Shown piece after piece: positions 1 to 24,000 of a DNA stretch of 64,000 nt. Position numbers: made by a program. This DNA comes from Ruditapes philippinarum (lineage: Eukaryota). The stretch is taken from assembly GCF_026571515.1 (NCBI RefSeq), contig NW_026853488.1, forward strand, positions 62,001 through 126,000. The letters are read 5' to 3'. The first letter of the stretch is position 1. Every line of letters starts with the position of its first letter.

Positions 1-3000
1 CTCAGTAACTTTAAATAAGTATACATTAATAAATGAAAAATAATAGAAACACGTATATAAATAAAACAAGTATTCCCTGAAAAAATATACCTAGCCAGTG
101 CTTGTTTACATAGGCATGATCCTGTATATGATGGTCATCATAGCAACCAAAATAGACACATGAAAGGCAGGCATGTAAACGTGCCCCATCTTCCCGGCAT
201 GTGTGACAGACACCGTGTCGCGCCTGCAATTATAAGAATAATTTGCAATTATGCATTATAATCAAGCAGATAGATAAGTTAAGAAAAGAATCTTGTTGAA
301 AAAGAATGGTTTGAATGAACTCTGATGAATTGATAAACAAAAGACATCTGTGGAAAAACTAATTGGTCTAGCATAAATTCATTACTTTAAATGAAAAAGA
401 TTAAATCAAGGTATAAAATTTATTTTAAACACCTGTTTAATAAAGTATTCAATAATTATATACAGACAGGCAGGCGAAATAATGCATGGATTTGAGACTG
501 ATTTATGCTTTAAATATTTGAACTGTGAAAATTTTTATTGGAAGGTGTGGCAACCAGGTTGCACCAGAATGAGTAAACATATTCGAACACGAAAGAAGCT
601 TAGGAAAGTTCGACGATATTTTTTTATTTAAATTCTTTCTTTAAATTATAAATTTTCATATGATTCTCTTCCGTTAAATGTGTTTTTATCATTCAGCTGT
701 TTAGCTGTCAGCTGTGTCACAAATATCACAGAATCTTTAGTCACCTTGCGACGTCTTGCATCCGCAGTTTTACAGCTTATGAAGCACGCATGTAGAATTT
801 TGTATGAGTCAGTGCCTTTTTCAGACTTTAAGGCTTGTAAATGAGGACAACCACTTAAGGTCATTGCTTTCTTATTTGCCTGAAACGATTTTGTTTTCCA
901 TGTCTAAATGTGCCTTGTTTGAACATTTCTTTTTGTTGACTATGCGCATCGTATCACTGCGCAGGATTTACACTTCCGGCTACTTTCAGTTTGATAAGAT
1001 TACAAACAAGTGAAATTTACAAATTCAGTGTTTTGAAAAATATCGAGGCATGATAGCGAATTCGACTGTTGAATAAAAGAAGACTGACTGTTTGATTACA
1101 GATCTGAATCAACCTGACATTGGCAAACTAACTACTTTTTATGTAATTGTTGATTATTCATTGCACATGATGATAATGTTTCTGCTGTGTATTAATAAAT
1201 TTAAGTTTTTTTGTGTCTCAATATATTTGCTGCAGTTGCCAGCATCCTGTAGATTTTGTTTAATCTTTTGAATAACTTAATTTCATTAGTTCAGTAGAAT
1301 TTTTAATCTGCTACAATTTTTATTTGCTTGTTCAAGACAATTATTTTGTATTTATTATTACATGTATTATACATATATACATGTACAATGTACCAGTTAA
1401 ATTAGGCCTACATGTATTTAAGATGTCTAGCTTTAAATGTTTTTACTTTTCAGATCTGTTACATGTTAGTTTATATGTTTTATGTCTCTGTTATTGTCGG
1501 TAAATGGCCTATTAGCAAATGTTTCTTGTGTCATGTGATGAAACATGACCAGAGTAGAGGTTAAAATCCATGATCCCTGGGTTGAGAGGCTAATACCTAA
1601 ACCACTAGACCACTGCTCCCCATAACTGTGATATTTATTTGTTGAGTATTACAAGTAACTCATTGCTCAATATATATATTTATAATTCTCCACAAGTGAC
1701 TGACTACTAAATCCCACATAATATTTTTATCAGCGATGTGAGACATTAAATAACAAATATTGGACTTGATGTATGAGATCATTTGTCACAGAGAAAATTT
1801 GACTTGCTCAACATGCTCAAGGTTGGCATGTAATGTGGTCATTTCATCATCTTATTTCCTTCTTATTTTTTTATCAATTTTTCGCGAGATTTTTGCTGGT
1901 GGTTCTGAAAGTCAAGGTTATAATTATGGGTGTTGAGAGATGGTTAGGGTTACAAATTATTGTACAATAAGGAACATAAAATTATAGTTAAGTTGTAAGA
2001 TAATTATGTATAGTTTTGTGAGTTAGATTATTTCTAGTGTGTGCAATTTTTGTTTCAGGTTGAAGTTGTGCCATTATAAGAGGTATGACATTTGATTCAC
2101 TGCTGGTAGGTGCTGGAGGAACAGCAAGCTTATTATATCTAATATACTGGCTGCTGAACAACAGGAAAAAGACTGATGTAACAGGAAAGGTTGTGCTCAT
2201 TACAGGTGCCGGTTCAGGGTTAGGAAAAGGTAAGTCAAGCTTATAAATATGAAGTGTCACATGGTGAGAAAAAAATGTGCAGCCTGACCAGGACTCCTAC
2301 TGGCTGCATACACTTGATGCATACACTTTTTCTATTGAATTTAAGTGAACTGATCATTTTGTGACAGATGGAAGCAGTATGCATATTTTGAAAATGTATC
2401 TGAAGGTGTAACTCTGTTATATAAATTGTGTTTATATTTTGATTCAAAATTGTTTTCAATATTTTTTTTTTTTGCTTAATAATAAATTGTATATAAGATT
2501 AATGAAAATTGTAGCAATTAACTTGAAGAAATATTTGCTTGATTTAAGTAAATATCTGGAGAGAGAAAAAAATCCCTCGGAATGATAAAATAAAGATTAG
2601 GTGAAAATAGATGAAAAATGTGAATGTTAATAAATGTACATGTTTGTTGTTTTTTCAGCTTGTGCTGAAGTATTTTTTAAGCATGGCTGTAAGGTGATAC
2701 TTGCAGGGAGAAATGTACAACAATTACAGGAGGTTAAGTCTAGTCTTGCTGATCAACTTCCTAAGGTAACACTTAAATGTCCTTACTTAATTAACAAACA
2801 TGTACATGTGTATCTGAGTTACAATAGCTAAAACAGTTAAACATCTTGTGAAATATCAGACACCAAAATGGCCTAAGAGTTAAAAAATAACAATGGGTTA
2901 TCCAAAAGTTTTGTCAATGTCACAGTGCTTTTTTAGGAACAGTGCAGCAACTAACCACAGTCAACATTTTATGTCAGGCAGCATGCCTTCAGAGGAGCAA

Positions 3001-21000: not shown

Positions 21001-24000
21001 TGTGTTATGAATAAAATCTACTCAATTTTGAGCATGCATAACTAAATACTTTGTTTTGAATAGATTTCTTATTACTTATCTTTACATTTAAAATGCTACA
21101 TATATGTTGCCAATCTACAAATGATTATATAAATCTAAAAAGTTTTAACTGTACCGAGTTCTGGCAGTTGTGACCGCCATTTTTGTGAAGGGAATTAACT
21201 CTGTTCTTTGCTAAATACCGATATCCGGTATAACTAGTAATGAATAAATACCGGTATCCGGTATAATTAGTAATGGACATTTCGGATTATAGACAATTCG
21301 GATAATTTTAGGACATTTCGGACTATGTCTTCAATCATTCGGACCATAGCACAGGAGACCTTGATCCATATCAAAATAATAATTTTATATTAATCTATTA
21401 TTGATCTTAATCATAGATTAATTTTTTGATAGTTGAAATAGTAGTCAGGTCGGAATTACAGTCAACCCTGCCCCAAGTCAACCCGGCCTCAAAATTGGTC
21501 AACCCGGCCCCAAAATTGGTTTCTGAACTTCTCGATTTCAACTCGTCATTCCCAAAAATGATCTTAAAGTTAAAAAAATATGCCTGAAAATATTTATAAT
21601 GCTGGTTTAAGTATAATGTCATAGCAGCCGTATATATTTATTGATTTATTTTTATTTGATTTACGGTAAAATATTTGGTCCGTATACGTTTTGGCAAATT
21701 AGCTAGGCGTTACTTTTTCGTTAATTGCACATTCCTGCGTTACTAGATATATACACAGTGGTCTTTGTCATACCTGTAGGATGATGACGATATGTAAAAG
21801 TCACATGTTTTAAACAATATGTGCTTTGTTAATTTCACTTGACTTCTGGTTTACATTTTAATGTTTTTCCCTGGGAGATCTTGAACTTAAACTGTGTAAT
21901 TAAGAAATAACGTATAGTTATGGGATACGGAGAAAAAAAAGAAGCGCATGATATATATAGGAAGTCTTATTTTTACAATTTTAGATTGATATAGAGACAA
22001 ATCATTGATCGTGTTAATAAGAAGTTTCTGAAATCAATAGTTATATGAGACATAGTTTTCTTGCTTGTTATACATGTTTATACTGCATAACCATGATAAC
22101 AGTACACGATTTACTCAATATGTTTGATCGATAACTTCACCTTGGTATTTTTAAGACCTATAATTCTCGCATGATGGGGAAATTAATTACTTACCCTGTC
22201 ATGGTTCGTTCATCTGTACCCATGTATCCTTTCTGTACAACAGATCTCGAAGCGCTCTATATAATTTTAATTAACCAGATCTCACTTTAATCCATACCCT
22301 TTAAAGCCCCCTCTATAATTTACAATCATGTAACAAAATTATCAGTCCATCACTCTGGCTCAAAACAGCTTCAGTGTTCGGCGTATCGTTCCGTGACTTC
22401 ATGACAGAAAATATGTAACTGCGAATTTAAATTTTTTTTATTAACACGAAGTTAAACGACAAAACAAGATTTACGTACTTCGTCCACATTTTCCTGTGTA
22501 TATATGTAAGCTTTATTTTACGAAAGATTGTGGGGACATTTCAACTTCACGAATTCACTGTTTCATCCTCGTGAATTCACAATTTTAACTTCGTAAATTA
22601 AATTCACGATTTCAACTTCACGAATTCACGATTTCATCTTGACAGATTCCATGATTTCAACTTTACGAACATCATAAAATTGAAATCGTAAAGTTCAAAA
22701 CTTGAATTCATGTTAATTAAATGACACTAGAGTGCTTAAAGTATATGAGTCTAATAATACCCGTATATCACAAATTTCACATGAAATTATATATGATAGT
22801 ATACGGGGATGTGTCAGATAAGTAATTCTTGATTATATTTCGGGAATCGTTAGATTCATTTTTTTTATAAAGGATTCTGGTGCCAGTGGTCCCATCGGTC
22901 TTTCGTATTTACGTCACTAACTATTGAGTTCATAGACGTAGCGTGTTATTCTTCATAATTTTCATGTAATGTGAAATGACATTGAATAGACGGAATTCTT
23001 TTGATTTGAAATTACGTTTACTGTGTGTCATTAAAAGTGTTTCTTCGCTTTGTTTTTTTTTTCTCCATCTTTTGAAAGTATAACAAATGAAAGTTTAAAG
23101 GCATATTCTACAGTTACACCTATAGACATAAAGGCAGCTTGAAAACTGTATAATAGAATTTGTTTAAACTTTGAATGAACTTGAATAAAAAACAATTGTG
23201 TAAATATGTCACAGCGGGAACTGAGTAGATAGATACATGTAAACCAGGCTGTACATCCTGTACTGAACCGATCGACTCTGTAATTATGGCAAGCTTGATA
23301 TTCCTGCGCCAGATTGATCGATAGTTTTAAAAACAAAATTGAAGCTTAAAAAGTGCATTTTACAAATTTATGAGGTTAAGATTAGGCTTGCAAATATGCA
23401 CAGCCTTACTCGTGTCAAAATTGTCGGCTGCTAAAGTTTTATCCATCATTTCTTGCTTTACGTTACCCATTTTATTGCAAGTAGGATAAGTCGAATATAG
23501 AAATTAATTGCGTACTTGGGCAAAAATGCCCCCAATGTTTTTATTTGCAAACAAAGTGTGAAATATATCTCTGATTGTCAATGCATATAAAACGTTTTTG
23601 AAACGTTTTATAAAATTAGTGTTTTGCAAAAAAAAAATACTTAATACACAGGATGAAGTGTAGAAAAAGCTGCAAACTCAAACTTTCCCAAGAAATTATA
23701 TATGACCTTTTGAAAATATCATAGCGAACTTAAAAGGACGAAATCATACCCCCGCTTGGTTTGCGTTATTATTGTTGTATATAAACCGATTCAAGACATA
23801 TCTGTGGAAATTAGCTAGCCTCCTTATCAATAACAATAAGGAAATGGCACGATTTTAATTAAAGTCTGCCCTTTAATAAAAGGGTGGACGGCTCTAAATT
23901 TGTCCTTTTCTCGTAAGAGGATGGGAATCATGTGATGCGTGTATGTGGTCGTACGGTCACTTTCCTTGCAACATATGTCCTCGATGCATGTATATGGTCG

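What the first reader, a model, noticed from the sequence alone, without database searches (positions are those of the whole stretch)
91..21180. USP22(-)/DHRS7B(+)/TMEM11(-) microsynteny apparently shared with human 17p11.2
Seen: three adjacent genes, USP22 head-to-head with DHRS7B and DHRS7B tail-to-tail with TMEM11. Recalled knowledge: human 17p11.2 carries the same three genes in this order and orientation. Inference: the block predates the protostome-deuterostome split, and has been kept despite heavy TE traffic inside it, which suggests a regulatory constraint.
Basis: partly seen in the sequence, partly recalled or inferred. Interest (0 to 1): 0.7.

Follow-up and report, generated by a model that had tools for sequence, protein, structure and literature searches.

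The report
Clam USP22–DHRS7B–TMEM11 gene neighbourhood
Three unrelated housekeeping genes lie side by side in a clam genome in the same order as on human chromosome 17, which is most likely a leftover of ancestral animal gene order and one more example of a known phenomenon.

Summary
Position 91 is the last base of coding exon 2 of a USP22-type gene (-). Position 21180 is the ATG of TMEM11 (-). A complete six-exon DHRS7B-type gene (+) lies between them, head-to-head with USP22 (1,220 bp ATG to ATG) and tail-to-tail with TMEM11 (7,595 bp stop to stop). The window matches Ruditapes philippinarum, a protostome.

Orthology:
- TMEM11 is firm.
- USP22 is good, but only through a Mercenaria full-length proxy, because the window holds just 84 N-terminal residues.
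- The SDR gene belongs to the DHRS7B/7C family. The 7B/7C split is vertebrate-specific, so the clam gene is co-orthologous to both.

Papers give the order USP22, DHRS7B, TMEM11 in human, pig and cattle. In mouse, Usp22 is separated from Dhrs7b. Human gene orientation is only partly documented.

Chance adjacency is negligible, so descent from the bilaterian ancestor is the best reading.

- "Heavy TE traffic": 40% of the block is tandem arrays, with no transposon proteins.
- "Regulatory constraint": it was not tested, and the mouse break weakens it.

This is a new member of a known kind. Interest is low to moderate.

The parts
745..864 (-). USP22-type gene, coding exon 1 (40 codons, ATG at 864)
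   Evidence: Reading frame and GT donor. 38 of 40 residues identical to residues 1-40 of Mercenaria 'USP22-like' P0001.
91..223 (-). USP22-type gene, coding exon 2 (zf-UBP zinc finger, 44 codons plus 1 nt); the gene continues off the left end of the window
   Evidence: Pfam zf-UBP E 1e-06. 38 of 44 residues identical to residues 41-84 of P0001. Splice sites.
865..2084 (.). Divergent spacer between the USP22 and DHRS7B start codons (1,220 bp); candidate shared promoter region
   Evidence: Coordinates. An ETS-like CCGGAAGT sits at 972-979 (-). An acceptor-like tttcag just before the DHRS7B ATG hints at an upstream non-coding exon. Transcription start sites are unknown.
2085..2229 (+). DHRS7B/C-type SDR, exon 1 (N-terminal hydrophobic segment, TGAGSGLG cofactor motif)
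2659..2765 (+). DHRS7B/C-type SDR, exon 2
3385..3598 (+). DHRS7B/C-type SDR, exon 3 (NNAG motif)
   Evidence: Pfam adh_short E 7.5e-12. 100% identical to R. philippinarum P0004.
10254..10346 (+). DHRS7B/C-type SDR, exon 4
10939..11091 (+). DHRS7B/C-type SDR, exon 5 (the catalytic Y-x-x-x-K spans the exon 4/5 junction)
   Evidence: Pfam adh_short E 3.4e-06. 68-72% identical to 7 named vertebrate DHRS7B proteins.
11648..11859 (+). DHRS7B/C-type SDR, exon 6 with stop (C-terminal tail)
   Evidence: 38-44% identical to the C-terminal tails of vertebrate DHRS7B, aligned almost to their ends.
11860..19454 (.). Convergent spacer between the DHRS7B and TMEM11 stop codons (7,595 bp); 48% is tandem arrays
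   Evidence: AATAAA signals at 12070 (+) and 18463 (-).
19455..19959 (-). TMEM11/PMI, exon 2 with stop
   Evidence: Pfam PF14972 E 1.1e-56. 87% identical to Mercenaria TMEM11 P0125.
21155..21180 (-). TMEM11/PMI, exon 1 (ATG at 21180, MAVTTART plus 2 nt)
   Evidence: Matches the N-terminus MAVTTASSR of Mercenaria P0125.
4498..9881 (.). Three tandem arrays in DHRS7B intron 3: 163-bp unit at 4498-5115, 13-bp unit at 5206-6910, 161-bp unit at 7383-9881
13354..17493 (.). Two tandem arrays in the convergent spacer: 162-bp unit at 13354-16231, 152-bp unit at 16759-17493

Best explanation
The window comes from a venerid clam, matching Ruditapes philippinarum. It carries three genes in this order:
- the 5' end of the single USP22/nonstop/Ubp8-type SAGA deubiquitinase gene (-);
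- a complete DHRS7B/7C-type short-chain reductase gene (+);
- a complete TMEM11/PMI gene (-).

Human, pig and cattle have the same order. The block is best read as a piece of ancestral bilaterian gene order inherited by both lineages, that is, a conserved ancestral microsyntenic block.

Shown: the genes, their order and orientation in the clam, and the order in mammals (from papers).

Inferred: common descent of the arrangement.

Why it survived is also inferred:
- The convergent DHRS7B-TMEM11 pair is the durable core. It is kept in human, pig, mouse and axolotl. It probably persists mainly because the short spacer between the two 3' ends gives rearrangement breakpoints a small, harmless target.
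- In the clam, the divergent USP22-DHRS7B pair shares a spacer of about 1.2 kb that may act as a bidirectional promoter. This link can be lost, as in mouse.
- Nothing points to a long-range regulatory block.
For: Gene identities:
- Pfam hits on single exons.
- USP22 exons 1 and 2 are 95% and 86% identical and contiguous with residues 1-84 of Mercenaria 'USP22-like' P0001. P0001's best solved relatives are the SAGA Ubp8 proteins (9.4e-77 and about 1e-58), against 1.2e-41 for the next USP family.
- With DHRS7B exon 3 as query, 47 of the 120 listed hits are vertebrate proteins named DHRS7B. None is named 7C, and no vertebrate hit is named member 7 (my hand count; 188 hits passed the threshold).
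- All six exons align collinearly to 7 named vertebrate DHRS7B proteins. Against rabbit, 151 of 287 aligned residues are identical, or 53% (my sum). Human DHRS7B is 35% identical to DHRS7 and 45% to DHRS7C (PMC13200781).
- With the TMEM11 exon as query, 411 hits passed and the named ones are TMEM11 or Pmi.

Gene order elsewhere:
- Human, pig, cattle.
- Axolotl: dhrs7b, tmem11, natd1, map2k3 and kcnj12 are linked.
- Mouse lists Dhrs7b, Tmem11, Gtlf3b, Gtlf3a, Map2k3 in that order.
- In human, DHRS7B and TMEM11 lie on opposite strands.
- In Mercenaria all three homologues show the same longest-contig length, 120,499,105 bp. In Mactra both DHRS7B and TMEM11 show 66,601,155 bp.

Chance: about 5e-7 for one triple.

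Known phenomenon: nearly 600 conserved ancestral pairs have been reported, 54.8% of them head-to-head (PMC3514665).
Against: - Only two deep lineages were actually compared for the full triple: venerid clams and boreoeutherian mammals. No gene order could be read in any other invertebrate.
- In the mantis shrimp Oratosquilla the DHRS7-like and Pmi proteins sit on contigs of different length (68,895,141 versus 48,488,192 bp). In mouse, Usp22 is not next to Dhrs7b.
- The USP22 exons alone do not discriminate. Exon 2 scores better against USP20 and USP33 (E about 0.01) than against yeast Ubp8 (E about 0.8) in the PDB, and exon 1 finds nothing relevant.
- No DHRS7/7B/7C gene tree was built.
- Human head-to-head and tail-to-tail orientation is recalled, apart.
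- Transcription start sites in the clam are unknown, so the bidirectional promoter is conjecture.
Confidence: 0.75

Rival explanations
1. The block is kept by selection on shared cis-regulation. The divergent USP22-DHRS7B pair would be co-regulated from a bidirectional promoter, or regulatory elements for one gene would lie inside a neighbour, so that any break is deleterious.
For: - The clam pair is head-to-head with only 1,220 bp between the ATGs.
- Head-to-head orientation and short spacers are enriched among conserved ancestral pairs (PMC3514665).
- An ETS-like CCGGAAGT lies 108 bp upstream of the USP22 ATG.
- The block stayed intact while 40% of its length became tandem arrays.
Against: - Mouse has separated Usp22 from Dhrs7b.
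- As I recall, the human USP22-DHRS7B spacer is tens of kb, not a bidirectional promoter. A pig lncRNA lies between the two genes.
- By my knowledge of these families, none of the three genes is a developmental regulator of the kind that anchors genomic regulatory blocks.
- The best-kept pair, DHRS7B-TMEM11, is convergent and cannot share a promoter.
- The motif count is weak: 4 in the window against 0.58 expected, and 2 of 100 shuffles reach 4.
- No conserved non-coding sequence or expression data could be examined.
Confidence: 0.2
2. The resemblance is coincidental. The same three genes came to lie together independently in clams and in mammals.
For: - Only two deep lineages show the full triple.
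- USP22 adjacency in vertebrates is documented here only for human, pig and cattle and is absent in mouse.
Against: - The probability is about 5e-7 for a named triple, even if all three genes are confined to one 1,000-gene linkage group.
- Relative orientation also matches, as far as it is documented.
Confidence: 0.03
3. One of the genes is a paralogue rather than the orthologue (for example DHRS7 rather than 7B, or another zf-UBP deubiquitinase rather than USP22), so the 'shared' block is partly a naming artefact.
For: - Single-exon PDB searches for the USP gene are ambiguous.
- 17 invertebrate hits for the SDR exon carry the name 'SDR family protein 7-like'.
- The Atlas look-alike scores for 7B, arthropod 'member 7' and 7Cb clusters are nearly tied: 1.00, 0.99 and 0.99.
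- No gene tree was built.
Against: - The Mercenaria proxy groups with SAGA Ubp8 by 17 to 35 orders of magnitude in E-value over the other USPs.
- Every named vertebrate hit of exon 3 is DHRS7B.
- 53% identity to rabbit DHRS7B exceeds the 35% between human 7B and 7.
- The C-terminal tail is collinear with DHRS7B.
- The nearest chordate Atlas cluster is DHRS7B (a lead only).
Confidence: 0.05

Closest known systems
Human 17p11.2 block USP22 - DHRS7B - TMEM11 - NATD1 - MAP2K3 (also in pig and cattle)
   Same: The three gene families occur in the same order. DHRS7B and TMEM11 lie on opposite strands.
   Different: - The clam block is about 21 kb. The human amplicon covering four loci is 461 kb.
- NATD1 and MAP2K3 do not follow TMEM11 in the clam window. 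A fish NATD1 domain gives no tblastn hit and no kinase catalytic-loop motif occurs in any frame. An FABP-type gene and an intronless SLC26 gene follow instead.
- Vertebrates have a second paralogue, DHRS7C.
Conserved ancestral microsyntenic pairs (CAMPs) of Irimia et al. 2012 (PMC3514665)
   Same: Unrelated genes kept adjacent between protostomes and deuterostomes. One pair here is head-to-head with a short spacer, the commonest CAMP type.
   Different: - Whether these pairs are on the published list is unknown. USP22, TMEM11 and DHRS7 do not occur in the main text and the supplement could not be opened.
- The CAMP criteria require several lineages; only two were compared here.
Bidirectional-promoter gene pairs such as HSPD1-HSPE1
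   Same: Divergent orientation and a spacer of about 1 kb in the clam.
   Different: - Start sites and co-expression are unknown in the clam.
- The pair is not obligatory: it is broken in mouse.
- As I recall, the human spacer is far longer than 1 kb.

Membership tests
USP22 / nonstop / Ubp8 (SAGA deubiquitinase) | N-terminal zf-UBP zinc finger | tested here: met
   Pfam PF02148 E 1e-06, 29.3 bits against a cut-off of 22.7, on the exon-2 ORF.
USP22 / nonstop / Ubp8 (SAGA deubiquitinase) | C-terminal USP (UCH) catalytic domain | not testable with these tools
   The domain lies off the left end of the window. It is present in the Mercenaria proxy P0001 (PF00443 E 3.7e-67).
USP22 / nonstop / Ubp8 (SAGA deubiquitinase) | Closer to Ubp8/USP22 than to other zf-UBP deubiquitinases | tested here: inconclusive
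   - Window exons alone: USP20 and USP33 at E about 0.01 beat Ubp8 at E about 0.8, and exon 1 finds nothing relevant.
- Through the 86-95% identical Mercenaria proxy: Ubp8 at 9.4e-77 against USP2 at 1.2e-41.
- The PDB search returned no chain named USP22.
DHRS7B (SDR32C family, with DHRS7C) | Classical SDR fold with TGxxxGxG, NNAG and YxxxK motifs | tested here: met
   TGAGSGLG in exon 1, NNAG in exon 3, Y-A-V-S-K across exons 4/5. Pfam adh_short hits on exons 3 and 5 are above the cut-off.
DHRS7B (SDR32C family, with DHRS7C) | Full-length collinearity with DHRS7B, including the C-terminal tail | tested here: met
   All 6 exons align in order to 7 of 7 named vertebrate DHRS7B proteins. The tail exon is 38-44% identical up to 4 residues from their ends.
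DHRS7B (SDR32C family, with DHRS7C) | Groups with 7B/7C rather than DHRS7 (SDR34C) in a gene tree | tested here: inconclusive
   - No tree was built, because no named DHRS7 or DHRS7C sequence came to hand.
- Indirect support: 47 of 120 listed hits are vertebrate DHRS7B and none is 7 or 7C.
- 53% identity to DHRS7B, against 35% between human 7B and 7.
- The nearest chordate Atlas cluster is 7B (a lead only).
DHRS7B (SDR32C family, with DHRS7C) | One-to-one orthology with DHRS7B specifically | tested here: not met
   From a paper, not a computation here. A single amphioxus Dhrs7b/c gene clusters with the vertebrate 7b-7c family (PMC3184775). An invertebrate gene is therefore co-orthologous to both paralogues. 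DHRS7B is the paralogue that still sits next to TMEM11.
TMEM11 / PMI (Pfam Mito_morph_reg) | Full-length match to the family profile | tested here: met
   PF14972 E 1.1e-56, profile positions 2-159 of 159. 411 hits passed the threshold, and the named ones are TMEM11 or Pmi.
Conserved ancestral microsyntenic pair or block | Adjacency of orthologues in several deeply diverged lineages | tested here: inconclusive
   - Adjacent in this clam window.
- Order given by papers for human, pig and cattle (full triple) and for mouse and axolotl (DHRS7B-TMEM11).
- No other invertebrate gene order could be read.
- The same-contig hints are not adjacency.
Bidirectional-promoter pair | Divergent start sites less than about 1 kb apart, with co-expression | tested here: inconclusive
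   1,220 bp between the ATGs. Start sites and expression are unknown.
Genomic regulatory block | A developmental regulator whose enhancers lie in bystander neighbours | not testable with these tools
   No conserved non-coding elements could be sought, because no second genome was available. By my knowledge of the three families, none is a developmental transcription factor.

The most novel reading that the evidence does not exclude
USP22-DHRS7B-TMEM11 is a three-gene block of the bilaterian ancestor that selection actively maintains. A shared divergent promoter and interlocked 3' ends would couple a chromatin deubiquitinase, an ether-lipid reductase and a mitochondrial-membrane protein into one co-regulated housekeeping unit. 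The breaks in mouse and mantis shrimp would be rare, compensated exceptions.
Probability: 0.15. Interest if true: 0.45.

Novelty: new member of a known kind. Interest (0 to 1): 0.25.

Why it matters
If the block is ancestral, it adds one well-delimited three-gene example, with exact exon coordinates in a compact 21-kb form, to the catalogue of gene neighbourhoods that have survived since the bilaterian ancestor.

It also offers a natural contrast for asking why neighbourhoods persist. The convergent DHRS7B-TMEM11 pair is kept in every vertebrate for which a paper gave the order. The divergent USP22-DHRS7B pair is broken in mouse.

It does not open a new kind of biology. Hundreds of such pairs are already described.

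Tried and rejected
- PDB searches with the two USP22 exons alone were too weak to assign the subfamily.
- A PDB search with DHRS7B exon 3 found only generic SDRs and no DHRS7-family structure.
- An Atlas look-alike search with the DHRS7B tail exon gave no usable hit. With the Mercenaria proxy it gave near-tied 7B, 7 and 7Cb clusters, which is a lead only.
- NATD1 and MAP2K3, the next human neighbours, were sought and not found.
- Rfam and tRNA scans of the whole window found nothing. A tRNA-like stretch seen by eye near 1560-1625 therefore stays unconfirmed.
- blastn found the five tandem arrays unrelated to one another, with no copy outside the block.
- CpG observed/expected gave no clear promoter island.
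- Literature searches returned 0 papers for TMEM11 + DHRS7B + synteny. No paper combined 'microsynteny' with any of the three genes. The search for CG33718 / CG7601 / nonstop returned 0 papers.

Full report
WHAT IS THERE

The window has no N and is about 32% G+C. Stop-to-stop ORFs in 1-22000 and Pfam scans of single exon ORFs show three genes.

1. A USP22-type gene on the minus strand.
   - Exon 1 is 864..745. It starts MTLSGCPHL... and has a GT donor at 744-743.
   - Exon 2 is 223..91. It has an AG acceptor at 225-224 and a phase-1 GT donor at 90-89.
   - Exon 2 carries a zf-UBP finger (PF02148, E 1e-06).
   - The rest of the gene lies beyond the left end of the window.
2. A complete DHRS7B-type gene on the plus strand, with six exons: 2085-2229, 2659-2765, 3385-3598, 10254-10346, 10939-11091 and 11648-11859.
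3. A complete TMEM11 gene on the minus strand.
   - Exon 1 is 21180..21155 (MAVTTART plus two bases, GT donor).
   - Exon 2 is 19959..19455 (PF14972, E 1.1e-56, whole profile).

USP22 and DHRS7B are head-to-head with 1,220 bp between their ATGs. DHRS7B and TMEM11 are tail-to-tail with 7,595 bp between their stops.

HOW THE SEARCHES WERE DONE

Where a full-length sequence was needed I used database proteins that the exon searches had returned.

ORGANISM

DHRS7B exon 3 is 100% identical to the NCBI protein 'DHRS7B-like [Ruditapes philippinarum]' (P0004, 307 aa). All six exons map to it in order, at 100% identity in four of the six tblastn HSPs. The other two HSPs (97-98% and 91%) run past the exon borders. 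The window therefore comes from R. philippinarum or something nearly identical. This is a venerid bivalve and hence a protostome.

USP22

Only 84 N-terminal residues are in the window.
- On their own they do not fix the subfamily. Against the PDB, exon 2 scores E about 0.01 to the USP20 and USP33 fingers and about 0.8 to yeast Ubp8. Exon 1 finds nothing relevant.
- Against the large protein set, exon 2 found 3 proteins among 3 candidates. The best is 'ubiquitin carboxyl-terminal hydrolase 22-like [Mercenaria mercenaria]' (P0001, 505 aa).
- Exon 1 matches P0001 residues 1-40 (38 of 40) and exon 2 matches residues 41-84 (38 of 44), contiguously.
- P0001 has zf-UBP plus a UCH domain. Its best solved relatives are the SAGA subunit Ubp8 (9.4e-77; yeast entries about 1e-58). 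The next family, USP2, scores 1.2e-41.
- That Ubp8 and nonstop are the USP22 orthologues is established knowledge, recalled and not tested here.

The assignment is good but rests on a proxy from another venerid.

DHRS7B

- With exon 3 as query, 188 proteins passed among 293 candidates and 120 were listed. By my hand count, 47 are vertebrate proteins named DHRS7B or DRS7B. None is named 7C, and no vertebrate hit is named member 7. 17 invertebrate rows are named 'SDR family protein 7-like'.
- Each of the six exons aligns, in order and over nearly its whole length, to 7 of 7 named vertebrate DHRS7B proteins, including the C-terminal tail. Against rabbit the identities sum to 151 of 287, or 53%.
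- A 2026 paper (passages read) gives 35% identity between human DHRS7B and DHRS7, and 45% between DHRS7B and DHRS7C. It describes DHRS7B as an acyl/alkyl-glycerone-phosphate reductase of ether-lipid synthesis (PMC13200781).
- Albalat et al. 2011 (passages read) report a single amphioxus Dhrs7b/c gene grouping with the vertebrate 7b-7c family, and separate Dhrs7 genes (PMC3184775).
- A tilapia SDR survey (passages read) reports conserved synteny of dhrs7a, dhrs7b and dhrs7c throughout vertebrates (PMC8073704).

The clam gene is therefore best called a DHRS7B/7C pro-orthologue. DHRS7B is the vertebrate copy that still sits beside TMEM11. An Atlas look-alike search with the Mercenaria proxy put a chordate DHRS7B cluster first (1.00), ahead of arthropod 'member 7' (0.99) and chordate '7Cb' (0.99). 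That is a lead only.

TMEM11

The exon-2 peptide found 411 proteins among 456 candidates, and the named ones are TMEM11 or Pmi across animals. It is 87% identical to Mercenaria TMEM11.

GENE ORDER ELSEWHERE, FROM PAPERS (passages read in each case)

- Human: a 461-kb 17p11.2 amplicon 'covered four loci (USP22, DHRS7B, TMEM11, MAP2K3)' (PMC5132233).
- Human: chimeric DHRS7B-TMEM11 reads belong to the class whose two parts match opposite strands (PMC5861515).
- Pig: USP22 is upstream and DHRS7B, TMEM11, NATD1 and MAP2K3 are downstream of one lncRNA (PMC11240794).
- Cattle...TNFRSF13B, USP22, DHRS7B (PMC12828016).
- Axolotl: dhrs7b, tmem11, natd1, map2k3 and kcnj12 are physically linked (PMC6473073).
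- Mouse: the listed order is Shmt1, Dhrs7b, Tmem11, Gtlf3b, Gtlf3a, Map2k3, Kcnj12, Tnfrsf13b, Usp22, Aldh3a1 (PMC2990707). Dhrs7b-Tmem11 is kept, but Usp22 is six loci away from Dhrs7b.

The exact human strands (USP22 minus, DHRS7B plus, TMEM11 minus) and the human distances are my recollection. PMC3422354 and PMC7205035 were seen only in the search listing.

HINTS FROM THE SEARCH TABLES

Seven named species occur in both the DHRS7B list and the TMEM11 list (120 rows shown in each).
- In 6 of them the two proteins show the same longest-contig length: Mercenaria, Mactra, Crotalus (locus tags Chor_015282 and Chor_015285), Erpetoichthys, Polypterus and Podarcis lilfordi.
- In 1, Oratosquilla, the lengths differ.
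- Mercenaria USP22-like shows the same 120,499,105-bp contig length.
- One unnamed pair (P0012 and P0136) shares a 2,009,753-bp contig length. I noticed it because the lengths match, so it is outside the count.
- A turbot gene model fuses TMEM11 with NATD1 (P0201).

These hints show shared chromosomes, not adjacency.

CHANCE

With random order inside a 1,000-gene linkage group, a named triple is consecutive in the same order with probability about 2e-6, and about 5e-7 with matching relative orientation.

'HEAVY TE TRAFFIC'

- 8,435 of the 21,090 bases of the block have another copy in the window. All of them lie within five tandem arrays:
  - 163-bp unit, 4498-5115;
  - 13-bp unit, 5206-6910;
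  - 161-bp unit, 7383-9881;
  - 162-bp unit, 13354-16231;
  - 152-bp unit, 16759-17493.
- None has a copy in 21181-64000, and blastn finds no relation between the arrays.
- Ten of the longer ORFs in the block (73-109 aa) that lie outside the gene models gave no Pfam hit above the cut-off.
- Real retrotransposon proteins (RVT_1, endonuclease) lie outside the block, at 40.1-43.5 kb.
- I recall that tandem arrays of about 160 bp in bivalves are often carried by non-autonomous mobile elements. Nothing here tests that.

The block has expanded by repeats, but transposon insertion is not shown.

WHY IT PERSISTS

Irimia et al. 2012 (abstract and passages read) report nearly 600 conserved ancestral pairs, 54.8% of them head-to-head in human. 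They explain these by co-regulation or by genomic regulatory blocks (PMC3514665). Applied to this block:
- The clam USP22-DHRS7B pair has the head-to-head, short-spacer form. An ETS-like CCGGAAGT lies 108 bp upstream of the USP22 ATG, but the evidence is weak: 4 in the window against 0.58 expected, and 2 of 100 shuffles reach 4.
- An acceptor-like site just before the DHRS7B ATG suggests a non-coding first exon nearer to USP22.
- The mouse break argues against a strict constraint on this pair.
- The convergent DHRS7B-TMEM11 pair cannot share a promoter, yet it is the better-kept one. A short spacer that offers few harmless breakpoints is the simplest account. This is inference.

NOVELTY

The phenomenon is well known. 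I found no paper that names this block as conserved microsynteny: searches returned none, and the Irimia main text does not mention the genes.

LEFT UNCHECKED

- Gene order in any other invertebrate genome.
- The DHRS7-family and USP-family gene trees.
- Clam transcription start sites and expression.
- Conserved non-coding sequence.
- The human strands.

Noticed in passing
window 32342-34471 (-): A single uninterrupted 709-aa ORF encodes an SLC26/SulP anion transporter (Sulfate_transp E 3.3e-100, STAS E 9.4e-17). As far as I recall, an intronless gene is unusual for this family in animals, so it may be a retrogene.
   Followed up: partly
window 26401-27550 (+): At least two exons of an FABP/CRABP-type lipid-binding protein gene, head-to-head with TMEM11 about 5 kb away. 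The second exon ORF hits CRABP2 and FABP9 in the PDB at E about 6e-05. Pfam found nothing on either exon ORF.
   Followed up: partly
window 40131-45849 (+): Fragments of non-LTR retrotransposons. Two separate RVT_1 stretches (E 1.3e-12 and 8.1e-21) and an endonuclease (E 1.9e-06) lie at 40.1-43.5 kb, broken by stops and frame changes. The ORFs further on, to 45.8 kb, gave no Pfam hit. These are the only clear transposon proteins in the window, and they lie outside the block.
   Followed up: partly
window 4498-9881 and 13354-17493: Four tandem arrays have units of 152-163 bp and are not alignable to one another by blastn. By eye, the 161-bp and 162-bp consensus units share a short AGAGTTAT(T)GCCC core. 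A 1.7-kb array of a 13-bp unit, CACGTGACTCCAC, lies at 5206-6910.
   Followed up: partly
window 11646-11653 (+): Two AG acceptors lie 6 bases apart at the last DHRS7B exon. The NCBI model and Mercenaria use the upstream one (...YGVLDK...). Use of the downstream one would drop two residues.
   Followed up: no
window 972-979 (-): An ETS/GABP-like CCGGAAGT lies 108 bp upstream of the USP22 ATG, inside the divergent spacer. The window holds 4 copies against 0.58 expected.
   Followed up: partly
proteins P0042 and P0173 (Oratosquilla oratoria): In this mantis shrimp the DHRS7-like and Pmi proteins are on contigs of different length (68.9 and 48.5 Mb). The DHRS7B-TMEM11 link seems to be broken in at least one arthropod.
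   Followed up: no
protein P0201 (Scophthalmus maximus): A turbot gene model fuses a TMEM11 domain with a NATD1 (PF14542) domain. This is probably a merged annotation of two neighbouring genes, consistent with TMEM11-NATD1 adjacency in fish.
   Followed up: no
window 1560-1625: A stretch that looks tRNA-derived by eye, possibly a SINE remnant, lies in the USP22-DHRS7B spacer. ARAGORN and Rfam found nothing there.
   Followed up: partly
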